Shown one piece after another: positions 2,748 through 11,776 of a stretch of DNA of 32,000 nt. Position 1 is the stretch's first letter. Each line of letters starts with the position of its first letter. A model generated the notes under the pieces. The model ran no database searches and was not told where the DNA came from. It saw nothing but the letters and a program-made list of their open reading frames with translations. Position numbers and translations under genes: made by a program. Origin of the DNA: Nanobdellota archaeon (lineage in GTDB: Archaea > Nanobdellota > Nanobdellia > Woesearchaeales > SM23-78); the NCBI GenBank assembly GCA_038046485.1, contig JBBSWA010000047.1, positions 1 to 32,000 on the forward strand, read 5' to 3'.

Positions 2748-3629
2748 ATGCGAAGAAAACTCGTCCAAATGGGACAGCATACTCTGATGTCAGCCATCCC
2801 CAGTTCTTGGGTGCAACGACATGGATTGCATAAAGGAGACTATCTGGAATTCCATGAAGTGGAGAATAAACTCCTAGTGACTTCCACAGCCGAGGTATAT
2901 GAACGTAAAATCACGATTGATATTATTTCTCCTACGATTGAATATGTCTGGCGAGTCTTGCAACCTGTGTATCTTTCTGGATACGATGAAGTTAAACTCA
3001 CCTTTCAAGACACGAAGGCACTTGACATCATCGAGCGCTTTGTTACCAACATCATCGGCTTTGAGATTGTGGAGACTGGAAAGAACCATGTTCTGATCAA
3101 GTCCATCTCCAAGCAACTGGATGAAGAGTTTCCTACTATTCTAAAACGAAGCTTTCTTGTCCTCAAACAAATGGCTGATGTTACTCAAGAAGTCTTTGAC
3201 ACAAAAGATAAAAAACTTATTGCTCAAATAAGGCCTTTAGAGATGACGATCAACAAGTATACTAACTTTTTACGAAGGCTCATCAATCGCACGGGCTACA
3301 AATATCCTCATTATATGTACTTGATTGTTACCTATCTTGAGCTTACATCAAACCATCTAGACTATCTCTATCGCTATTACGAGCGCAATCCTCGCGCCAC
3401 CATTGAGAAGCAAGCGAGTAAGGATTTTTATAAACTCAGAGACTTGATTTACCGCATCCATGATCTTTACTACAACTATACCCCTGAAAAGTTCAGATGG
3501 ATCTCAGAAGAATTGCCCCACTTCAACTGGTTTGAAAAGATTCAAGATTTTGATGTGCGCTATAACTTCAAAAGCATGGCTGAATATCTAGTTCAGATCA
3601 GCAGGCAGATTGCAGCATTGCACTTATAA
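2748..3629 (+). CDS. AbrB/SpoVT-domain plus PhoU-like regulator (archaeal phosphate-uptake-regulator type)
   Basis: The N-terminus RKLVQMGQHTLMSAIPSSWVQRHGLHKGDYLEF fits the SpoVT/AbrB swapped-hairpin pattern. The helical C-terminal part is consistent with PhoU-like repeats; that part rests on recollection only. Confidence 0.55.
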   Translation: MRRKLVQMGQHTLMSAIPSSWVQRHGLHKGDYLEFHEVENKLLVTSTAEVYERKITIDIISPTIEYVWRVLQPVYLSGYDEVKLTFQDTKALDIIERFVTNIIGFEIVETGKNHVLIKSISKQLDEEFPTILKRSFLVLKQMADVTQEVFDTKDKKLIAQIRPLEMTINKYTNFLRRLINRTGYKYPHYMYLIVTYLELTSNHLDYLYRYYERNPRATIEKQASKDFYKLRDLIYRIHDLYYNYTPEKFRWISEELPHFNWFEKIQDFDVRYNFKSMAEYLVQISRQIAALHL

Positions 3630-3701
3630 TTCTCAAATGAGAGATTCTACCCTGCGATGTATATAGACAATGTTTATAAATTAACTTTAAAAGCTAGACT
3701 T

Positions 3702-4895
3702 ATGAGCATCTATTTAGCTGTGGATCAAGAAACCTATGTACCCCCACCTGTTTGTATCCTTCAAGTTTCTTTGGGAAGTGAAATGGTCATAACCCCCCCA
3801 CACCCTCTAGAAGGAGATGTTGTATACCTCGCACCCAGCTTCAATGGAACTTCCCGTCAAGCCATTGAATTTCTTAAAAAAACTGGCTTTCGAACCATCC
3901 ACCAACTTAACGACTCTTCACTCGCAGGACCAAGTACACTTAACGATTTAGTTGGAGTCATACCAAATTCAATGGTTGGCGAAAGCCCTGCCATCCGTCA
4001 AGTTCATGCCGATATTCAGACTTTCGCCAACCTAAACTCACCTGTGCTTATTACAGGCGAAAGTGGAGTTGGCAAAGAACTTGTTGCCAGAGCCCTTCAC
4101 AACCAAAGTTCAAAAAAAGAAAAACCTTATGTGACCGTCAACTGCCCCGCCATTCCCGTAGAGTTATTTGAATCTGAACTATTCGGCCACACCAAAGGAG
4201 CCTACACTGGAGCGGATGGTGGTACAGGAGGATATATCGGAGAAGCTCAAGATGGCACTTTATTCTTCGACGAAATCGGAGAATTTCCCCTCATTCACCA
4301 AGCCAAACTCTTACGCCTTCTTGAACAACATGAATACCGCCCTGTAGGGGGTAGTAAAAACTACACCACCCCTGCCCGGTTTATTGCAGCCACCAATCAA
4401 GACCTTGTCCACCTCGTCCAAAAAGGAAAATTCCGGCAAGACCTTTACTATCGCCTCAATGCACTCCCATTACCTGTGCCCCTCCTCTTTGAACGAAAAG
4501 AAGACATTTCTCGCATCGCCACCTACTATGCCCTTACTATCCAAAAAGGAAAACCCCTCTTGCTAGATCCAAGCGCAGCTACTACCTTACAAGCTTATCC
4601 CTGGCCCGGCAATGTCCGCGAACTACGAAACCAACTTGAATTGGCCGTAGCCCGAGCTCAGACCCCTTACCTTTCAGAAAAAGATTTCACTCTACCCCCC
4701 TCAGAAGAACGCCCAATATTGGGTAAAGGAAAAGGAAGCCTGCGCCAACGCATGAGAGAATATGAGAAAAGACTGATCTTAGACGCCCTCGAACAAAACC
4801 ATTGGAATATCAGTGAAACCGCTCGACAACTCAGTCTGGAACGCAGCAACCTCCACCGAAAAATAAACGGATTAAGCATTCAAACTCAAGAATAG
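3702..4895 (+). CDS. sigma-54-interaction-domain AAA+ transcriptional activator with C-terminal Fis-type HTH
   Basis: Motifs present: Walker A GESGVGKE, GAYTGA (a GAFTGA-loop variant), Walker B LFFDEIGE, RQDLYYRLN, WPGNVRELRN and C-terminal HTH ISETARQLSLERSNLHRKI. The ORF opens at 3657, but tttataaa at 3673-3680 sits 21 nt before the ATG at 3702, so I prefer that start. Confidence 0.85.
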   Translation: MSIYLAVDQETYVPPPVCILQVSLGSEMVITPPHPLEGDVVYLAPSFNGTSRQAIEFLKKTGFRTIHQLNDSSLAGPSTLNDLVGVIPNSMVGESPAIRQVHADIQTFANLNSPVLITGESGVGKELVARALHNQSSKKEKPYVTVNCPAIPVELFESELFGHTKGAYTGADGGTGGYIGEAQDGTLFFDEIGEFPLIHQAKLLRLLEQHEYRPVGGSKNYTTPARFIAATNQDLVHLVQKGKFRQDLYYRLNALPLPVPLLFERKEDISRIATYYALTIQKGKPLLLDPSAATTLQAYPWPGNVRELRNQLELAVARAQTPYLSEKDFTLPPSEERPILGKGKGSLRQRMREYEKRLILDALEQNHWNISETARQLSLERSNLHRKINGLSIQTQE

Positions 4896-5000
4896 TTTCA
4901 TACAAAGAGATCTTGAAGCCACTACCTAAACAAAGCGAAAGACTTTCTACAGGACTATAGAATAGACAACCTTAAAAACAAACTTTATTTTCCAACCCTC

Positions 5001-5846
5001 ATGAAAACCAGAACCCTTGGCCCCTGGAAAGTGTATCCTGTTGGACTCGGGGTCATGGCTGTCGACGAATATGGCCATACTCCTTTGAAAGAAGCGATTG
5101 AACTGTTTCAGTACGCTATGGAACAGGGTGTTACGTTGTTTGACACCGCCGATGTGTATGGCAATGGACATAATGAAGAATTACTGGGAAAGGCGTTTTC
5201 TGCTAAAGAACAAGACAAGATTTTGATCACTACAAAAGCAGGCTGTACACGACCGGGCGGTGTGGATTGGGGCTTAGATGGAAGACCGGAGCACATCAAA
5301 GAAGCCATCAAAGCCAGCCTGAAACGATTGGGGCTGAAACGAATTAAACTGTATCAATTGCATTCACCCGATCCCAATGTTCCCTTTGAAGATACTGTTC
5401 GTGCGTTCAAAGAGTTGCATGGGAAAGGACTTTTTGAACAGTTTGGACTATCCAATGTAAGCCTGGAACAGCTGAAGATTGCGCAGAAAATAATTCCTGT
5501 AGTGAGTGTGCAAAATCAATTTAGAGTACAATATAAAAAAGACGAAGCTGAATTACTGCCCTACTTGACCAAACACAACATTGCTTTCTTACCTTACTTT
5601 CCCCTCGGCGGGAACTTCAACGGAGTTGCAAGCCCCAAACTACGGCAAGAGCCAAAACTGCAAGAGATTGCGAAGAAACTCAAGATTAGCGTGAGTCAGC
5701 TTTGTTTAGCCTGGATCCTGAACAAATGGCCGACGGCCATTCCGATCCCTGGAACGACTTCAAAAGAACACCTTCTTGAGAATATCCAAGCAGCAAAGAT
5801 TGAATTGCCCAAGGAAGTGATTAAGAAGATGGATGAGATGTATTAG
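5001..5846 (+). CDS. aldo/keto reductase
   Basis: FDTADVYGNGHNEELLGKA and the rest of the AKR pattern run over the full 281 aa. Confidence 0.85.
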   Translation: MKTRTLGPWKVYPVGLGVMAVDEYGHTPLKEAIELFQYAMEQGVTLFDTADVYGNGHNEELLGKAFSAKEQDKILITTKAGCTRPGGVDWGLDGRPEHIKEAIKASLKRLGLKRIKLYQLHSPDPNVPFEDTVRAFKELHGKGLFEQFGLSNVSLEQLKIAQKIIPVVSVQNQFRVQYKKDEAELLPYLTKHNIAFLPYFPLGGNFNGVASPKLRQEPKLQEIAKKLKISVSQLCLAWILNKWPTAIPIPGTTSKEHLLENIQAAKIELPKEVIKKMDEMY

Positions 5847-5869
5847 ATAATTCTTAAGATACATTTATA

Positions 5870-6703
5870 TTAAATATCAATAAATTTAGATTTGAAGATA
5901 CCATTCGTCTTTTTCTGAATATTTTTATAAGACAAAAGTGCTTTGGGAGGAACCCCCCCTAATTTATACGTTTTGTTCCACCCTCTCCAAAAAGCCACAT
6001 TAATATAATTAAACAGTAAATCGAATAAATTACTTGCATTATTTTTATTATATCTTGGCGCATAATAATAATTTCCTTCCCATTTATCTTTCCCTAATTT
6101 TTTCCCAACATCAAAGAAAGCTTGGAATGTTCTCTTGCTATGATGACTAAACTGAGATAACCACACATAATAACTATAATCCTTTTCTTTATTCATACGC
6201 TTTAATAACTCTCTTATAGGTGGCCAATTATCTTTATATTTAATAGTGCTCTTCCCATTTTTTATTACTTCATCCCAATTCAGAAACTTTTCTTCATAAA
6301 ATTTTTGTCTTTCAAACCACTGCTCTAAAGCTTTCCCATCTATAACCATATACTCTAAAGCTATAGAACTTTCCATTATACTTCTAACTAATAATCCTGC
6401 TTCATTATAATACCCTTTACATATTAATTGAATACATACCTCTTCTTTTCTTACCATATCAGATAAAAAAATGGTTCCAAGTAGAAACAAGCTTGAATTT
6501 GCATCATTAGGTTTGAAAAGAGCCCAATTATCGTTATCTATAATAATTTCAAGAATAAAACTCTTTTGCTTTTTTAGATATTTAACTTTTTCTTTTAGAT
6601 CTATATTTGTCTTCATTACATTTGTCTTTTCAACTCTTTTCTTCTTTTTCTTGAGCTCAACTATTTTTCCAGATATCATCTTCCTTAACGTATGCCAGAA
6701 CAT
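5870..6703 (-). CDS. hypothetical protein in an AT-rich islet (possibly DUF5677-like)
   Basis: Long ORF in a markedly AT-rich block. The segment GLLVRSIMESSIALEYMV ... WLSQFSHHS resembles DUF5677 as I remember it. A TATA box (gtttatatta on the minus strand, plus coordinates 6704-6713) abuts the first ATG, so Met9 at 6679 is the more likely start. Confidence 0.5.
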   Translation of the reverse strand: MFWHTLRKMISGKIVELKKKKKRVEKTNVMKTNIDLKEKVKYLKKQKSFILEIIIDNDNWALFKPNDANSSLFLLGTIFLSDMVRKEEVCIQLICKGYYNEAGLLVRSIMESSIALEYMVIDGKALEQWFERQKFYEEKFLNWDEVIKNGKSTIKYKDNWPPIRELLKRMNKEKDYSYYVWLSQFSHHSKRTFQAFFDVGKKLGKDKWEGNYYYAPRYNKNNASNLFDLLFNYINVAFWRGWNKTYKLGGVPPKALLSYKNIQKKTNGIFKSKFIDI

Positions 6704-6827
6704 AATATAAACTTAATGTAAATAACTAAATAAATTATGCTACGCGTTAAGGACTAAGCTGCGATTGAATAATCCATCCTCTTTCTCAGGACAAACCTTT
6801 TTATAACTCCTTTTAATCCTCGATTGA

Positions 6828-8073
6828 ATGGATCGATCTTTTGCTCGGGAATTGGACCTGGATGATCCCCTTGCTAAGTATCGACGAAGGTTTGTGATTG
6901 GAGACCCTAATATCATCTATCTCGATGGGAACTCTTTGGGGAGAATGCCCAAAACCACACGAAAAAGGCTTCATCGAGTTATTGATGAGGAATGGGGCCG
7001 TGGTTTGATACGAAGCTGGGGAGGCAAAGCCAGCTGGATTGACCTGGATCAACGCATTGGAGCGAAATTGGCTCGTATTGCTGGCGCAGAAGAAAATGAA
7101 GCCATCGTCTGCAACTCTACTACTGTCAACTTATACAATTTAGTGGGTGCTGCCCTTGCCTTGGGCCATACGGCGATTGTCACGAACAAAAGCAATTTCC
7201 CCACCGATAGTTATGTCCTCCAAGGCATTGCTCAAGAAAAAGGGCTTACCCTCATTGTCTTTGAAAACGACCCTGTCCAAGGACCCCACTGCTCAAAATG
7301 TTGAGGAAGCCCTTAAATGGCTCAGATCTGGACAAACCCCCCTAGTTAGCCTGCCCCTTGTCTGTTATCGATCAGGTGCCCTTGCCGATGCTGATGCAAT
7401 CGATGCTGTTGTTGAAGACGCCGGCGGACGAACGATTTGGGATGGCTGTCATGCCTCGGGCATCATTCCTCTTGATGGAAAACTCATGGTATCCTGCACG
7501 TACAAATACCTCAATGGAGGACCAGGGGCTCCAGCCTTTATCGTTATCCCTGAAGAACTCCAAGGAAAACTTACCCCTGTCATCCAAGGTTGGATGGGGC
7601 AACAAAATCAGTTTGACATGGATTGGCAATACCAACCTGTACCTGGCATGAAACGATGGGCTTCTGGAACACCACCTGTATTATCCTTGGCTGCCATTGA
7701 ACCTGGTGCTGACATGATCCTCGAAGCAGGTGTAGACAACATCCGGCAAAAAAGCATGGTACTCACTCAATTTGTCATTCAACTCTACAGGAATCACCTC
7801 CAATCCGAAGGATTCACTCTCGGCACCCCTGAAGATCCTACTCGACGAGGCGGACATGTAGCGCTTTGCCACCCGGAAGCGTACCGGATCTGCAAAGCCA
7901 TGATCTATGAAGATGTGATCCCTGACTTCAGACCGCCCAACATTATTCGCCTTGGCTTAACACCTTTAGACACAAGATATGTCGATGCGTATGATGGCAT
8001 TGACATTCTACGGGAAATCATGCGAACGGAGAAATACAAACGACTTACAAAGGAACGATCACGAGTTACCTGA
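6828..8073 (+). pseudogene. kynU: kynureninase, interrupted by a +1 frame change near 7272-7282
   Basis: Frame A (6828-7304) carries YLDGNSLGRMP and the N-terminal domain. Frame B (open 7147-8073) carries WDGCHASG and the PLP-lysine motif CTYKYLNGGPGAPAF. The two frames overlap and both are needed for a full-length enzyme. Confidence 0.8.
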
Positions 8074-8170
8074 AGTTATTCTGCTTAATACGGAAACCAT
8101 CCGATTCTTTCGCAATTCTTACGGAATTCTGAGGAATCCCTTTTTGAAGACTTTCTTATCACTTTGCTGA

Positions 8171-8458
8171 ATGAGACTGTTTGAAGTCAACGACAAGACA
8201 GGAAGGATTATTTACTTGACTGAAGAGCGCTGGCGACATATCTTATTTAAACACCCGAATCTTATCTCTGAATTAGAAACTATAAAACGAACTCTCCTTT
8301 ACCCTTCCTGTATTCTACAAGACCCACGTAACCTCAGCATTCATTCTTATTTTGGACATTGCAAAAACAAACCTGAACCTTTTTTAGCTGTCGTCGTAAA
8401 GTATATAAACGGAGAAGGCTTTATCCTTACCAGTTTCTATACAGACCAAACAAAATGA
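8171..8458 (+). CDS. putative toxin (DUF4258-like small nuclease fold)
   Basis: 95 aa with LTEERWRHILFKHP and a C-terminal VVVKYINGEGFILTSFY pattern. It has a 4-nt ATGA overlap with the downstream DUF2283-like gene. Confidence 0.45.
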   Translation: MRLFEVNDKTGRIIYLTEERWRHILFKHPNLISELETIKRTLLYPSCILQDPRNLSIHSYFGHCKNKPEPFLAVVVKYINGEGFILTSFYTDQTK

Positions 8459-8679
8459 AACAAAAACTACATGTGCATTATGATTCAGAAGGAGACATCT
8501 TAGAGGTTATAATCGGCAAACCAACTCCTGCCATTATGAAAAACCTTGGTGACAATATCTTTCAACGGGTAGAAGAAAAAACAGGAAAAACAAAAGGATT
8601 TATGATTATGAGCTTCAAGAAAAGAGAACAAAAAGACATTGAAATTTCCCTTTCTAATGAACTGGCTTTGACGGTATAA
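8455..8679 (+). CDS. DUF2283-family protein (putative antitoxin)
   Basis: 74 aa with the HYDSEGDILEV motif typical of DUF2283/YuzE-like proteins. It appears translationally coupled to the upstream gene. Confidence 0.6.
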   Translation: MKQKLHVHYDSEGDILEVIIGKPTPAIMKNLGDNIFQRVEEKTGKTKGFMIMSFKKREQKDIEISLSNELALTV

Positions 8680-8685
8680 TTACTT

Positions 8686-9423
8686 TTAACGCTTTGCCAC
8701 GTGCTCCCAAAGATATTTATGATAACGTTTGTAGTTCTCCGCGAGTTCCTTGCTTTCTACGACGAAAGCAAAGAAGTCTTCCCCTAAAAGATAGTTGACG
8801 GCTTTGTTACCATGAACGCCTAGAACGGTAGGGTTTCCACTGAATGCTTTAGGCAAGAAACGCCATTCTTCCAAAGGATAGGGCTTTGCTTCTTTGCGCA
8901 GCTCATAACGCAAGAGGTTGTAAATCTTAATTCCTTTTTTCAAACGACGTTTGGTCCAATTTTCATAATACGTGGGGAGGCGCTTGGGCACATAACGACC
9001 TGCGGCAATCCAGTAAATGGCTTTGTAATTGAGCATGTCCTCCCATACGGTTTTGATTCCTTCAATGCCCCTATAGATCTCAGCATTGATGGAAGGCTTT
9101 GCTAGCTCAAACTTCTGAATGAAACTAGGCAGTTCTTTTTCCACGGCTTTCTTGGTTTCCTCCAGTGCTTCTTTCTTATCTTCTAGGTAGTCTAAAATCT
9201 TACTTGGATGCACAGCTCGGAATAAGCGCTTATTATTCTCCGTTACATAGGTGACCAAGCCCCGTTCGATGAGCTTATTTAAGATGTCGTAAATATTGCG
9301 ACGCTCAATGCCTGTTTTTTCATGAATCCGGTTGAGCGAGGTAATACCTATATCTAGTAAAGCTGAATATACTCTTATTTCTCCATCGGAAAGACCCACT
9401 TCACGCAAGATGGAAAGAGACAT
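8686..9423 (-). CDS. TrmB-family transcriptional regulator
   Basis: N-terminal winged helix LSDGEIRVYSALLDIGITSLNRIHEKTGIERRNIYDILNKLIERGLV, with a C-terminal effector-type domain. Confidence 0.8.
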   Translation of the reverse strand: MSLSILREVGLSDGEIRVYSALLDIGITSLNRIHEKTGIERRNIYDILNKLIERGLVTYVTENNKRLFRAVHPSKILDYLEDKKEALEETKKAVEKELPSFIQKFELAKPSINAEIYRGIEGIKTVWEDMLNYKAIYWIAAGRYVPKRLPTYYENWTKRRLKKGIKIYNLLRYELRKEAKPYPLEEWRFLPKAFSGNPTVLGVHGNKAVNYLLGEDFFAFVVESKELAENYKRYHKYLWEHVAKR

Positions 9424-9444
9424 TCTTTTCTTAAGCTGAACCTC

Positions 9445-9453
9445 TATATAAAT
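9445..9453 (-). promoter_or_regulatory. TATA box for the TrmB gene
   Basis: The minus strand reads ATTTATATAGAGGTT, 21 nt before the start at 9423. The same 15-mer occurs at 18033-18047. Confidence 0.55.
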
Positions 9454-9456
9454 TTA

Positions 9457-9475
9457 TGGTATTGTAACAATACCA
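9457..9475. promoter_or_regulatory. perfect 19-bp palindrome, candidate operator
   Basis: TGGTATTGT-A-ACAATACCA lies between the divergent TrmB gene and the beta-barrel gene, just upstream of the A/T-rich box cttattaataaaag of the plus-strand gene. Confidence 0.45.
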
Positions 9476-9510
9476 CAAATACTTATTAATAAAAGCCTCT
9501 TACATTCGTT

Positions 9511-10278
9511 ATGAAAACAAGCTTAGAAAGGCGGCTTCGCACCGTTGGCGCAACACTGAGTTTATGCACTGCTCTAGCTACGAGCGCCTCTGCCGATGAT
9601 ATCACTAAAGGAGTACGAGGCCCCACCCCTCTGCAATTGGATGACCGCGTCAGTTACAGCCAGAATGAAAAAGGTGTGCAAAGCTTCGGTAACACACTTA
9701 TCTTAAAATACTGGGATGGAAACCAACTGGGGAAATGGATGTTTGCCTCACTGCCTTATCGATATGTATCTTCTCCCACTAAAGAAACAACTGGATTTGG
9801 AGATCTCACTTTGGGTGGAGGACCTCGCGGCCGCATCGGTAACCTACACTTTCTTTCCTATGGCGCTCTTACTCTTCCTACTGGAGCTGAATTTATTAGC
9901 GCGGAACGAACGGATTTGAAATTAGGCACTTTTGTTACTTACCTGACTTTAGATAAAAAGTTTGAAATAGATAAATCGTTCGAATACACTCTTACTGGAG
10001 AAACCCCTCAACATGTGAATCCCCCCAATGAATTCGCTTTTGGATTTGTAGTTGGGCGGCAAATCACAGAAAAAATCAAATTTGCAGTCGGACTTACACA
10101 CCTCCTTAAAGAAGATGCTCTCACCAAAGAAGATCCTTACCTTACGAATTTAAGAATAGTCGGCAGATATACACCTTCCCCTACAATCCACTTTGAAACC
10201 ATCATAGATGTTGGGATTAAAAGTCATGAGCTGCCTAAAGGAAAAAGTGTAACGGTTTTAGCAAGATATAATTTCTAG
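9511..10278 (+). CDS. secreted beta-barrel protein resembling bacterial outer-membrane MetA-pathway/transporter family
   Basis: It has a signal peptide ending SASA-DD, GFGDLTLGGG and LTLPTGA motifs, alternating-hydrophobic strands and a C-terminal VLARYNF (terminal Phe). Confidence 0.6.
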   Translation: MKTSLERRLRTVGATLSLCTALATSASADDITKGVRGPTPLQLDDRVSYSQNEKGVQSFGNTLILKYWDGNQLGKWMFASLPYRYVSSPTKETTGFGDLTLGGGPRGRIGNLHFLSYGALTLPTGAEFISAERTDLKLGTFVTYLTLDKKFEIDKSFEYTLTGETPQHVNPPNEFAFGFVVGRQITEKIKFAVGLTHLLKEDALTKEDPYLTNLRIVGRYTPSPTIHFETIIDVGIKSHELPKGKSVTVLARYNF

Positions 10279-10288
10279 AAAGAACTTT

Positions 10289-11776
10289 CTAATCCCCATA
10301 ACTGGGCATGACCTTTTTCACGACGTGCTCGAAATGCTGACCTGTGATTGCGAGCTCGACGGCCATGGGGAGTGCCTTTCTTTTCATCACAATCGTACGA
10401 ACAATCAATCGCCAATACCACAAGCGCGCCCTCGACAAAACACCAATACGCCACATACTTTTTAAAAAAGCAATTATCCCCTTCATGTCCATTTTAGCCT
10501 TAACAGATGGAACATAATTCTTGATGAAGGTGTCAATTCTTCGGTAATATTGTTTTGGTTCATAAAGGGTTTTCATCACTTGCTTGTAACCTGCCATTAG
10601 TTTTTCTTTTTTCATCTTAGGCTTGAAATTCAAGACTCCGTCTGTGTTTCCGCCTGTTGACTCTCCTAGTAGCCGTCCTTCTTTTTTCATACGATACCAA
10701 AGTTGAGTCTGCGGCAAGGCTGTTAATACTCCCACCATAGCCGTTACAACTCCTGTTTTTTGGATGAAGTCAATTTGACGCTCAAAGATGTTCTCTGGAT
10801 CTGTATCAAACCCGACAATAAACCCGCCTAAAACCTGCATCCCATACTGTTGAATCTTTCTTACCGCTTCTCCTAAATCTCTGTTTGTATTTTGAACTTT
10901 CTGACACTCGATTAAACTCTCTTTTACAGGAGTCTCGATTCCTAAGAAAACCTTATAGAAATTTGCAGCACGCATCAACTCCAATAATGAATTATCTGCT
11001 GCTAAGTCTGTACTCGCTTCGGTGAACAACTGGAAGGGATAGTTATGATTTTTCTGCCACTTGACAATGGAACGTAACATCTTTTTTACGTTCACCCGGT
11101 TCCCAATAAAATTATCATCCACAATAAACAAAGACCCTCGCCAACCTGCCTCGTACAAGGCCTGGAACTCTCGCACCATTTGCTGTGGCGTTTTTGTTCG
11201 AGGAATTCTGCCATTCATGATGATGATGTCACAAAACTCGCAATTAAAGGGACAGCCTCTTGAATATTGGACCAACAATGTAGCGTAATCCTTGAAGCGG
11301 ATCAACGACCACATGGGAAGTGGCGTCTGTGTCACATTCGGCCGAATGGGTGAAGTATATACTGGTTTTAGATGGCCCTCTTTCAAGTCTTTCAAAAACA
11401 AGGGCAAGGTCACTTCAGCCTCATTCAAGATGAAATGATCCACTCCTTTGAAATTCTCGTGCTGTGTCGTGAAAACAGGACCCCCTGCCACCACTTTCTT
11501 GCCTAAGGTACTGCATCGAGCAATCACTTCCTCTGCACTGGGCTTCTGAACAATCATCGCACTGATGAACACCATATCCGCCCAAGCCAAATGATCATCT
11601 GTTAACTCAGTGACATTCATATCCACTAATTTCTTTTCCCACCGCTTAGGAATCATCGAGGCAATTGTGAGTAAACCTAAGGGAGGAAAGGCTGCTTTTC
11701 TAGAAATGAAGCGCAGGGCATGCTTAAAGCTCCAAAATGTGTCTGGATATTTAGGATAAACGAGAAGTATTTTCAT
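10289..11776 (-). CDS. B12-binding-domain radical SAM protein
   Basis: The N-terminal cobalamin-binding-type fold begins MKILLVYPKY. The CxxxCxxC cluster is GCPFNCEFCD, and there is a long C-terminal extension. Confidence 0.85.
   Translation of the reverse strand: MKILLVYPKYPDTFWSFKHALRFISRKAAFPPLGLLTIASMIPKRWEKKLVDMNVTELTDDHLAWADMVFISAMIVQKPSAEEVIARCSTLGKKVVAGGPVFTTQHENFKGVDHFILNEAEVTLPLFLKDLKEGHLKPVYTSPIRPNVTQTPLPMWSLIRFKDYATLLVQYSRGCPFNCEFCDIIIMNGRIPRTKTPQQMVREFQALYEAGWRGSLFIVDDNFIGNRVNVKKMLRSIVKWQKNHNYPFQLFTEASTDLAADNSLLELMRAANFYKVFLGIETPVKESLIECQKVQNTNRDLGEAVRKIQQYGMQVLGGFIVGFDTDPENIFERQIDFIQKTGVVTAMVGVLTALPQTQLWYRMKKEGRLLGESTGGNTDGVLNFKPKMKKEKLMAGYKQVMKTLYEPKQYYRRIDTFIKNYVPSVKAKMDMKGIIAFLKSMWRIGVLSRARLWYWRLIVRTIVMKRKALPMAVELAITGQHFEHVVKKVMPSYGD

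What the first reader, a model, noticed from the sequence alone, without database searches (positions are those of the whole stretch)
2748..4895. A bacterial enhancer-binding-protein module (sigma-54 AAA+ plus Fis HTH) in an archaeal context, next to an AbrB-PhoU regulator
The ORF has every hallmark of a sigma-54 activator, including an intact GAFTGA-type loop (GAYTGA) whose only known role is contacting sigma-54. Archaea transcribe with TBP/TFB and have no RpoN. The gene nevertheless has its own archaeal-style TATA box (3673-3680).

Its N-terminal domain of about 95 aa matches no sensor domain I recognise (no REC, PAS or GAF signature). It sits directly downstream of an AbrB/SpoVT-PhoU-type regulator.

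Either this is a recent, possibly non-functional transfer, or the AAA+ module has been repurposed.
Basis: partly seen in the sequence, partly recalled or inferred. Interest (0 to 1): 0.6.

Follow-up and report, generated by a model that had tools for sequence, protein, structure and literature searches.

The report
Bacterial sigma-54 activator gene in archaeon
A tiny groundwater archaeon (DPANN, Woesearchaeota-like) really carries an intact bacterial-type ATP-driven transcription activator behind a normal archaeal promoter, although its obligate bacterial partner, sigma-54, was not found in the genome, so the protein either works in a new way or is idle cargo.

Summary
Window 3702-4895 (+) encodes a 397-aa bacterial enhancer-binding protein (bEBP). 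It has a sigma-54-interaction AAA+ domain (E 7e-63), intact Walker A/B, a GAYTGA loop, a lid and a Fis-type HTH.

The host is archaeal: TBP is present, the genome is 1.53 Mb, 89.9% complete and 0.34% contaminated. No sigma-54 domain was found with three Pfam models or with a lineage-specific mini-sigma-54 profile.

The gene is not an assembly artefact. Both flanking genes are conserved (77-87% DNA identity) in same-genus genomes that lack it, and the identical protein occurs on 5 contigs from NCBI, Logan and ENA.

It sits in a variable island and is compositionally ordinary. Its BRE/TATA lies exactly at the genome's canonical -29 leaderless position, so the true start is 3702, not 3657.

The first ~90 residues match nothing. 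The AbrB-PhoU-like neighbour is a native, unrelated gene.

Strong PF00158 hits occur in 25 of 400 good genomes of this phylum. Earlier agents of this scan reported archaeal bEBPs on other DNA at least six times, but I found no paper describing them.

Best reading: a horizontally acquired, expressed bEBP acting without sigma-54, or idle cargo. Its function is unproven.

The parts
2748..3629 (+). Native AbrB/MazE-type plus divergent PhoU-like regulator gene (293 aa). It is the left flank of the insertion slot and not part of the EBP unit.
   Evidence: It is conserved at 82-87% DNA identity in G001 and G002, which lack the EBP.
3630..10288 (.). Variable island, absent as a block from congener G001. 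It holds the EBP, an aldo-keto reductase, an AT-rich DUF5677 gene, a frameshifted kynureninase, a TrmB regulator and a MetA-pathway-like gene.
   Evidence: In G001 the AbrB-PhoU gene directly abuts the radical-SAM gene (window 10289-11776). G002 holds a 1153-aa ORF with no Pfam match in the EBP's slot.
3663..3670 (+). ATAGACAA, copy 1, at -39 from the EBP ATG. It overlaps the BRE-like AGACAA at -37 to -32.
   Evidence: The same 8-mer sits at the same offset before the AKR gene (4962-4969). Only 3 of 461 promoters hold it.
3673..3680 (+). TATA box TTTATAAA. The hexamer starts at -29 from ATG 3702.
   Evidence: Genome-wide, TATA-like hexamers peak at -31 to -27 from the ATG.
3702..4895 (+). bEBP gene, 397 aa, probably translated from a leaderless mRNA. 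The longer ORF from 3657 would give 412 aa.
3702..3971 (+). Orphan N-terminal region (~90 aa). No recognisable sensor or receiver domain.
   Evidence: No homologue in 1.84 billion representatives except itself and one weak repeat hit. No Pfam match at E 10. A REC profile scores it no better than shuffled copies. pLDDT is 33-57. The ESM Atlas gave nothing.
3972..4472 (+). Sigma-54-interaction AAA+ core.
   Evidence: PF00158, E 7e-63/7e-64. Modelled at pLDDT above 90. Best solved relative is ZraR 1ojl, E 2e-67.
4056..4079 (+). Walker A, GESGVGKE.
   Evidence: Alignments.
4197..4214 (+). L1 loop GAYTGA (GAFTGA-type sigma-54 contact motif).
   Evidence: GAYTGA is a natural, functional variant in HrpS and in Clostridiales EBPs (PMC3105312, PMC6615313).
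4269..4274 (+). Walker B, Asp-Glu.
   Evidence: Invariant D190/E191 in alignment A2.
4491..4691 (+). AAA+ lid domain. The usual LRER motif that precedes it reads LFER here.
   Evidence: PF25601, E 1e-13. R263F is one of three departures from 44 invariant columns.
4752..4865 (+). Fis-type helix-turn-helix (HTH_8). It is the only one in the genome.
3974..4032 (+). Perfect 12-bp inverted repeat (GGTTGGCGAAAG / CTTTCGCCAACC, 35 nt apart) inside the coding region, at the junction of the N-terminal region and the AAA+ domain.
   Evidence: As RNA it folds at -23.4 kcal/mol, z -4.75. The 12-mer occurs nowhere else in the window. Its role is unknown.
4913..4951 (+). Short dispersed repeat directly after the EBP stop codon.
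   Evidence: About 90% identical copies lie on contigs C35 and C68 of this genome and in G001 and G002. It is not a tRNA or an Rfam family.
4962..4969 (+). ATAGACAA, copy 2, at -39 from the AKR ATG. With copy 1 it brackets a 1299-bp unit that holds the EBP coding sequence.
5001..5846 (+). Aldo-keto reductase gene, the right flank of the slot.
   Evidence: PF00248, E 3e-65. It is 77% identical in G002, which has no EBP.

Best explanation
Shown: this is a genuine gene of a DPANN (Woesearchaeota-like) archaeal chromosome. It encodes a complete bacterial enhancer-binding protein of the NtrC/NtrX/ZraR kind. It was acquired horizontally, and the family is otherwise bacterial. It lies in a slot between two conserved native genes that holds different cargo in each of three congeners.

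Shown: the gene carries a BRE/TATA promoter at exactly the position this genome uses for leaderless mRNAs. It keeps the ATPase motifs, the GAYTGA loop and the Fis-type HTH. Its former regulatory domain is unrecognisable.

Inferred: it is expressed and assembles into an AAA+ ring that no longer depends on phosphorylation. It binds DNA through its HTH.

Inferred: because no sigma-54 of any kind is detectable, it acts independently of sigma-54. It would be a DNA-bound regulator, for example a repressor or architectural factor, or an ATP-driven remodeller of some archaeal DNA-protein complex. FleQ, VpsR and TyrR are bacterial precedents for EBP-family proteins acting away from sigma-54. The target genes are unknown.
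For: bEBP membership:
-.
- All catalytic motifs are aligned.
- 41 of 44 columns invariant among 46 bacterial homologues are kept, despite a terminal branch of 1.0-1.5 changes per site.
- The AAA+ and HTH parts model at pLDDT above 90.

Archaeal residence:
- TBP is present and contamination is 0.34%.
- The flanking genes are 77-87% identical in congeners.
- The identical EBP and its three neighbours each occur on 4-5 contigs from NCBI, Logan and ENA, all with the same longest contig of 101,283 bp.
- The gene's tetranucleotide distance is at the 33rd percentile of the genome.

Expression signal:
- TATA hexamer at -29 and BRE-like AGACAA, matching the genome-wide promoter profile.

No partner:
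- PF04552, PF04963 and PF00309 are all negative.
- A profile of DPANN mini-sigma-54 proteins is negative.
- No sigma-70 region 2 was found.

Retention in such hosts:
- 25 of 400 good genomes of the phylum carry strong PF00158 hits. Most of the 19 examined keep a GAFTGA-type loop. Two family-level clades (f34, f90) have 100/97 support, which points to vertical inheritance.

Contrast within the island:
- A neighbouring kynureninase gene in the same island is frameshifted, whereas the EBP is intact.
Against: - There is no expression, binding or activity data.
- There is no close relative, so selection on this gene inside the archaeon cannot be measured. Its long branch could have built up in an unsampled donor.
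- It keeps only 80 of 92 columns that are at least 90% conserved (87%, against a bacterial mean of 96%). An invariant Arg in the LRER motif is Phe. This is compatible with relaxed constraint.
- The gene is absent from both congeners, so it is dispensable for the genus.
- A retained GAYTGA loop has no known use without sigma-54, which fits a young passenger as well as it fits a new partner.
- The genome is only 89.9% complete.
Confidence: 0.55

Rival explanations
1. Idle passenger. The gene arrived by horizontal transfer into a fast-turnover island, has no function in a cell without sigma-54, and simply has not decayed yet.
For: - It is absent from both same-genus genomes and from 15 other genomes of the family, apart from one 32% fragment in an unpublished genome.
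- The island also holds a frameshifted kynureninase and an AT-rich foreign gene.
- Conservation at near-invariant sites is reduced, and R263F is present.
- The regulatory domain is degraded beyond recognition.
Against: - The 397-codon frame is intact with every catalytic motif, despite a very long branch.
- The promoter sits precisely at the native position.
- The composition is already host-like.
- Family-level clades of such genes persist in other sigma-54-less DPANN lineages.
Confidence: 0.3
2. Canonical-like mechanism with an undetected partner. A sigma-54-like adaptor is encoded in the unassembled ~10% of the genome or is too divergent to recognise, for example the core-binding-domain-less mini-sigma-54 seen in a few DPANN genomes. 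The GAYTGA loop acts on that adaptor.
For: - A family of 233-312-aa proteins with a region-I-like Leu-rich N-terminus, a Sigma54_DBD and an RpoN box exists in 6 of 401 genomes of the phylum.
- In G210 one lies 7.5 kb from a sensor-less EBP on the same contig.
- The L1 loop is retained here.
- The genome is 89.9% complete.
Against: - No hit in G000 with three Pfam models or with the lineage profile; the best is E 0.1.
- 23 of 25 EBP-bearing DPANN genomes also lack it.
- The mini proteins lack the core-binding domain, and archaeal RNA polymerase is not known to bind sigma factors.
- There is no clear excess of -24/-12 motifs and none on this contig.
Confidence: 0.08
3. Artefact. A bacterial fragment was mis-assembled or mis-binned into an archaeal contig.
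For: The protein family is otherwise bacterial. The top 120 database hits and the top 80 genome loci are all bacterial where they carry a name.
Against: - Native genes conserved in congeners lie within 30-110 bp on both sides.
- The same protein and its neighbours were recovered on 4-5 contigs from three sources, sharing a 101-kb longest contig.
- The tetranucleotide composition and promoter are host-like.
- Similar genes sit deep inside near-closed DPANN genomes of 2-8 contigs.
Confidence: 0.02
4. Inter-organism effector. The archaeon delivers the EBP to a bacterial partner to drive that cell's sigma-54 promoters. An earlier agent of this scan suggested this for another copy.
For: DPANN archaea are thought to be symbionts, and the sigma-54 contact loop is kept.
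Against: The N-terminus shows no signal peptide or secretion signal (read directly). There is no delivery system nearby. Known DPANN hosts are archaea (own knowledge).
Confidence: 0.02

Closest known systems
ZraR / NtrC1 / NtrX-type bacterial enhancer-binding proteins (PDB 1ojl, 1ny5/1ny6, 5m7n)
   Same: The AAA+ sigma-54-interaction core, lid and C-terminal Fis-type HTH are colinear. E 2e-67 to ZraR and 47-50% identity to NtrX-like proteins over the core. Walker A/B, arginine fingers and a GAFTGA-type loop are all present.
   Different: No receiver domain or phospho-acceptor Asp is detectable. The linker is about 14 residues shorter. The host is an archaeon without sigma-54. The gene has an archaeal leaderless promoter.
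PspF (E. coli) and HrpS (Pseudomonas syringae), sensor-less bEBPs
   Same: There is effectively no working sensor domain. HrpS naturally carries GAYTGA (PMC3105312).
   Different: PspF and HrpS act on sigma-54 and are controlled in trans (by PspA and HrpV). No such partners are seen here. This protein keeps a ~90-aa N-terminal extension of unknown fold.
FleQ, VpsR, TyrR and Rhodobacter capsulatus NtrC: EBP-family proteins that regulate sigma-70 promoters
   Same: They are a precedent for an EBP-fold protein regulating transcription without sigma-54 through its HTH. This is the working model proposed here (own knowledge; VpsR is also covered by PMC6158489, listed).
   Different: The sigma-54-independent members, except FleQ, have lost the GAFTGA motif. 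This protein keeps it. The RNA polymerase here is archaeal.
Bacterial sigma-70 homologues in Woesearchaeota (fam00359 of Castelle et al. 2021, PMC8204110)
   Same: Bacterial transcription-initiation components are encoded in DPANN genomes. Mis-binning was excluded and their mechanism is unclear.
   Different: It is a different protein family. G000 has no sigma-70 region 2. That paper and its supplements do not mention sigma-54 or NtrC-type proteins.
Other DPANN-encoded bEBPs
   Same: Intact sigma-54-type AAA+ genes in sigma-54-less DPANN genomes, often on variable islands. About 1 genome in 16 has one.
   Different: This copy is only 34-45% identical to them. It has no supported sister among them. 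It keeps a canonical HTH_8 and has its own orphan N-terminal region.

Membership tests
Bacterial enhancer-binding protein (sigma-54-dependent activator, NtrC family) | Sigma-54-interaction AAA+ domain (PF00158) above the curated cut-off | tested here: met
   211.7 bits against a cut-off of 20.2, full-length match 1-167/168. 214 bits in the genome scan.
Bacterial enhancer-binding protein (sigma-54-dependent activator, NtrC family) | Walker A, Walker B, sensor I, arginine fingers and sensor II intact | tested here: met
   GESGVGKE, GTLFFDEIG, AATN, FRQDLYYRLN and PGNVRELRN all align with bacterial and DPANN EBPs. 41 of 44 invariant columns are kept. One departure is R263F in the LRER motif.
Bacterial enhancer-binding protein (sigma-54-dependent activator, NtrC family) | GAFTGA-type L1 loop | tested here: met
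   GAYTGA at 4197-4214. The variant is reported as functional in bacteria (PMC3105312, PMC6615313).
Bacterial enhancer-binding protein (sigma-54-dependent activator, NtrC family) | C-terminal Fis-type HTH (PF02954) | tested here: met
   41.3 bits against a cut-off of 22. 45.7 bits in the genome scan.
Bacterial enhancer-binding protein (sigma-54-dependent activator, NtrC family) | Sigma-54 (RpoN) encoded in the same genome | tested here: not met
   PF04552, PF04963 and PF00309 are negative. The DPANN mini-sigma-54 profile is negative. Caveat: the genome is 89.9% complete.
Bacterial enhancer-binding protein (sigma-54-dependent activator, NtrC family) | -24/-12 (GG-N10-GC) promoters at target genes | tested here: inconclusive
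   Strict consensus: 5 sites against 2.1 +/- 1.4 expected. Loose consensus: 34 against 20.6 +/- 5.4. None lies on contig C47.
Bacterial enhancer-binding protein (sigma-54-dependent activator, NtrC family) | ATP-dependent opening of sigma-54 closed complexes | not testable with these tools
   This needs biochemistry or a reporter assay.
NtrC/NtrX-type response regulator | N-terminal receiver (REC) domain with a phospho-acceptor Asp | tested here: not met
   No PF00072 match at E 10. A REC profile built from 106 homologues scores the N-terminus no better than shuffled copies. MAFFT places Gln where the Asp should be and shows a 31-residue gap. Weak hints of a REC remnant are not significant.
Sigma-54-independent EBP derivatives (TyrR, VpsR, R. 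capsulatus NtrC) | Loss or degeneration of the GAFTGA motif | tested here: not met
   GAYTGA is retained. The protein may work like these proteins but is not one of them by sequence.
AbrB/SpoVT-PhoU fusion regulators (the neighbour gene 2748-3629) | N-terminal AbrB/MazE swapped-hairpin domain plus C-terminal PhoU-like helical domain | tested here: inconclusive
   AbrB/MazE matches in 33/33 family members, best E 7e-8. PhoU matches in 8/33, best E 2e-5. In this protein itself the scores are 23 bits (below the cut-off) and E 0.16. JGI names relatives 'phosphate uptake regulator'.

The most novel reading that the evidence does not exclude
DPANN archaea have domesticated the bacterial enhancer-binding ATPase as a motor that acts on a non-sigma-54 target. 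The target could be a component of the archaeal pre-initiation complex, or a core-binding-domain-less mini-sigma-54 adaptor in the lineages that have one. This would be ATP-dependent, enhancer-type control of transcription in Archaea. The copy studied here would be an independently evolving, expressed member that still uses its GAYTGA loop on that target.
Probability: 0.15. Interest if true: 0.85.

Novelty: new member of a known kind. Interest (0 to 1): 0.5.

Why it matters
bEBPs are textbook obligate partners of sigma-54, and both are regarded as purely bacterial. A 2025 survey used 380 archaeal proteomes as a negative control and found no sigma-54-specific EBPs (PMC12316311).

This case shows, with synteny and evidence from several assemblies, that an intact bEBP sits in an archaeal chromosome behind a native promoter. 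In my sample about 1 in 16 good genomes of this phylum has such a gene.

If these proteins are active, they must have a partner other than sigma-54. That would open the question of ATP-driven transcription control in Archaea. If they are inert, they are a clean example of how far bacterial regulatory genes penetrate DPANN genomes. They would also caution against reading motif conservation as proof of function.

This copy, with its canonical HTH and short gene, is a convenient test object.

Tried and rejected
1. N-terminal domain. All of the following gave nothing usable:
- Pfam at E 10.
- phmmer against 1.84 billion representatives. The only hit was a weak match to a repeat in a 2525-aa protein.
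- ESM Atlas.
- AlphaFold without an alignment (pLDDT 37) and with one (N-terminus pLDDT 33-57).

2. 'Degenerate receiver' idea. MAFFT and one BLAST alignment (E 0.07) hinted at REC strands, but a REC profile scored the region no better than shuffles. I dropped it as unproven.

3. Functional link to the AbrB-PhoU-like neighbour. Rejected, because that gene is conserved without the EBP.

4. Chimera.

5. Independent acquisition. A quick tree placed the EBP among bacterial sequences, apart from 16 DPANN EBPs. An AU test then did not reject joining them (p 0.84), and the careful site-heterogeneous tree leaves it an unplaced long branch. The donor and the number of origins are unresolved for this copy.

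6. Sigma-54 promoters. There is no convincing excess.

7. Promoter duplication. The overall similarity of the EBP and AKR promoters is not exceptional: 25 of 242 promoters match as well. Only the shared 8-mer at the same offset stands out.

8. The repeat at 4913-4951 is not a gene end, a tRNA or an Rfam family.

9. There is no internal promoter before Met at 3972.
Full report
WHAT IS THERE

The second ORF (3657-4895, 412 aa) matches Pfam Sigma54_activat over its whole length (E 7e-63). It also matches AAA_lid_14 (1e-13) and the Fis-type HTH_8 (1e-10). NCBIfam aligns it with NorR, NifA, AtoC, NtrC, ZraR, PspF and NtrX, all below their equivalog cut-offs. The best solved relative is ZraR 1ojl (E 2e-67).

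Walker A (GESGVGKE), Walker B (DE), sensor I, the arginine fingers and sensor II all align with bacterial EBPs. The L1 loop reads GAYTGA (4197-4214). This variant occurs naturally in HrpS and in Clostridiales EBPs and still works with sigma-54 (PMC3105312, PMC6615313).

With an alignment of 46 homologues, AlphaFold models residues 90-340 and 347-390 at pLDDT above 90.

THE TRUE START AND THE PROMOTER

In 1180 long ORFs of this genome, TATA-like hexamers pile up 27-31 nt before the ATG, about 15-fold over background. The weight matrix shows an A-rich BRE at -37 to -32 and TTT(A/T)(A/T)AAA at -30 to -23. Most mRNAs here are therefore leaderless.

The native neighbour gene has the same AATGTTTATAA at -30. 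The gene is therefore 3702-4895 (397 aa), the form one public source also calls (P0003). The first 15 codons of the long ORF are promoter.

IS THE HOST ARCHAEAL AND THE GENE REALLY IN IT?

The genome (G000) has 1.53 Mb in 80 contigs. It is 89.9% complete and 0.34% contaminated, and it encodes TBP. The window is the first 32 kb of the 37-kb contig C47.

That contig also carries:
- a TrmB regulator;
- an SMC that matches TIGR02169 best, which I recall (own knowledge) as the mainly archaeal type;
- LAGLIDADG genes.

The left neighbour (2748-3629) belongs to a family of about 43 proteins of about 293 aa. Where the sources give a name (5 of the 43), the organisms are Candidatus Nanoarchaeia, Woesearchaeota, Nanoarchaeota or 'archaeon'.

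DNA comparison with the two same-genus genomes is decisive:
- In G001 the left neighbour (82% identity) is followed directly by the radical-SAM gene that lies at 10289-11776 in the window. So 3630-10288 is absent there.
- In G002 the left neighbour (87%) and the aldo-keto reductase (77%) are both present. Between them lies a 1153-aa ORF with no Pfam match instead of the EBP.

The EBP thus occupies a hot slot between conserved native genes, inside a mosaic island.

The identical 412-aa protein is on record on 5 contigs from NCBI, Logan and ENA. Its three neighbours are on 4-5 contigs each, all with the same longest contig of 101,283 bp. The gene's tetranucleotide distance from the genome is at the 33rd percentile of random segments of equal length, and its GC is 45.6% against 42.6%.

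A chimera is therefore very unlikely.

NO PARTNER

Sigma54_DBD, Sigma54_CBD and Sigma54_AID find nothing in G000. Neither does Sigma70_r2.

While scanning the phylum I found short proteins (233-312 aa) in 6 of 401 genomes. They have a region-I-like Leu-rich N-terminus, a Sigma54_DBD match and an RpoN box (ARRTVxKY). An earlier agent of this scan had described this family (e1-3381703).

A profile of these six finds nothing in G000 (best E 0.1). It also finds nothing in 23 of the 25 other EBP-bearing genomes.

-24/-12-like motifs are at most slightly over expectation, and none lies on C47.

THE N-TERMINAL REGION

Residues 1-90 of the 397-aa form have no Pfam match at E 10. They have no relative among 1.84 billion representatives beyond a weak repeat hit, nothing in the ESM Atlas, and a low-confidence fold.

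Alignments hint at a receiver remnant with the phospho-acceptor Asp replaced. However, a REC profile scores the region no better than shuffled copies. I treat the region as an orphan, possibly the wreck of a receiver domain.

ORIGIN

The best of 8000 scored homologues in 5.8 billion proteins is 47-48% identical over the AAA+/HTH part only, and every named hit is bacterial. The best 80 loci in species-representative genomes are bacterial and come from many phyla, at 37-49% identity. The 19 other DPANN EBPs I fetched are 34-45% identical.

The trees do not place this copy:
- A quick LG+G4 tree placed it among bacterial sequences.
- An AU test did not reject joining it to the main DPANN cluster.
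- The careful site-heterogeneous tree leaves it as an isolated branch of 1.5 changes per site in an unresolved backbone.

That careful tree does support two family-level DPANN clades (f34 and f90, 100/97). EBPs therefore seem to be inherited vertically within DPANN families. None of 200 bootstrap trees showed a single origin for all DPANN copies.

The donor and date of this copy are unresolved.

CONSTRAINT

The protein keeps 41 of 44 columns that are invariant in 46 bacterial homologues. It keeps only 80 of 92 columns that are at least 90% conserved (87%, against a bacterial mean of 96% and a minimum of 87%).

Departures include R263F in the LRER motif before the lid and several changes around the pre-sensor-I loop. 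This is the pattern of a protein still constrained as an ATPase but somewhat relaxed or retargeted. It cannot tell where the changes happened.

In the same island a kynureninase gene is split by a frameshift (6828-7304 and 7147-8073). Decay does happen here, and the EBP has escaped it so far.

HOW THE GENE MAY HAVE GAINED ITS PROMOTER

The 8-mer ATAGACAA lies at -39 from both the EBP ATG (3663) and the AKR ATG (4962), 1299 bp apart. Only 3 of 461 promoters hold this 8-mer. Under the promoter weight matrix, a match at that offset has a chance of about 1e-4 (my calculation). Overall promoter similarity is unremarkable.

I infer, tentatively, that the insertion duplicated or recombined at the AKR promoter.

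WIDER PICTURE

PF00158 at E <= 1e-25 occurs in 26 of 401 genomes sampled from the phylum, or 25 of 400 good ones. These include assemblies of 2-8 contigs. One of the 26, G268, is unpublished. So is G010, the only family member with an EBP fragment.

Of the 19 copies examined, 14 keep G(A/S)(F/Y)TGA.

Earlier agents of this scan reported archaeal bEBPs at least six times on other DNA. The full-text library I could search holds no paper on them. Castelle et al. 2021 describe sigma-70 homologues, but not EBPs, in Woesearchaeota.

VERDICT

This is a real, intact, probably expressed bEBP in an archaeon in which no sigma-54 was found. Membership of the bEBP family is met on every sequence criterion. 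The one functional criterion that fails is the partner.

My estimates for the alternatives are:
- about 0.55: sigma-54-independent DNA-bound regulator or ATPase;
- about 0.3: idle passenger;
- about 0.08: hidden sigma-54-like partner;
- about 0.02: artefact;
- about 0.02: effector delivered to a bacterial partner.

Noticed in passing
L041-L046; L130:11786-12598 (G210:C15); L131:6164-6946 (G248:C12): A family of short (233-312 aa) sigma-54-like proteins occurs in 6 of 401 genomes of the phylum. They have a region-I-like 'LSPLELELLL' N-terminus, a Sigma54_DBD match and an RpoN box, and they have no core-binding domain. In G210 one lies 7.5 kb from a sensor-less EBP (L130:3247-4239) on the same contig. 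An earlier scan note (e1-3381703) describes the family.
   Followed up: partly
L022-L040 (19 genomes of the phylum): Strong PF00158 hits occur in 25 of 400 good genomes of the phylum. Fourteen of the 19 copies fetched keep G(A/S)(F/Y)TGA. Three copies of family f34 have (R/G)VATGV and two of f90 have ..TDA. The f34 and f90 copies form well-supported clades, which suggests vertical inheritance. One positive genome (G268) is unpublished.
   Followed up: partly
window 6828-8073: The kynureninase gene is split into two overlapping frames. ORF 6828-7304 matches TIGR01814 positions 2-132 and ORF 7147-8073 matches positions 170-400. It is a frameshifted pseudogene in the same island.
   Followed up: partly
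window 5870-6703 (-): A DUF5677 gene has 28.7% GC in a 42.6% GC genome. It is the most deviant tetranucleotide make-up tested (100th percentile), so it is probably a recent foreign gene.
   Followed up: no
window 9511-10278 (+): This ORF matches PF13557 (putative MetA-pathway of phenol degradation). To my knowledge that is a family of bacterial outer-membrane proteins, which is odd in an archaeon.
   Followed up: no
window 3974-4032: A perfect 12-bp inverted repeat with a 35-nt spacer lies inside the EBP coding region, at the junction of the N-terminal region and the AAA+ domain. The RNA fold has z -4.75. No explanation.
   Followed up: partly
window 4913-4951; G000 C35:6270-6309, C68:6517-6543; G001:C11:10251-10290; G002:C58:11646-11684: A short dispersed repeat (~40-70 nt, ~90% identity) lies directly after the EBP stop codon. 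It is not a tRNA, an Rfam family or a real gene end. It could be an end of a mobile element or a conserved 3' signal.
   Followed up: partly
L020:1755-5216 (G002:C41): In congener G002 the slot that holds the EBP here holds a 1153-aa ORF with a hydrophobic N-terminus and no Pfam match.
   Followed up: no
whole genome G000: Promoter architecture is very regular. A TATA-like hexamer lies 27-31 nt before the ATG in about 40% of long ORFs, with an A-rich BRE at -37 to -32 and a T-rich spot at -12/-11. Leaderless mRNAs therefore dominate.
   Followed up: yes
L008 (G010:C6:4-576): A fragment 32% identical to the EBP C-terminal part lies at a contig edge in one same-family genome. That genome is unpublished, so nothing in this report rests on it.
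   Followed up: no
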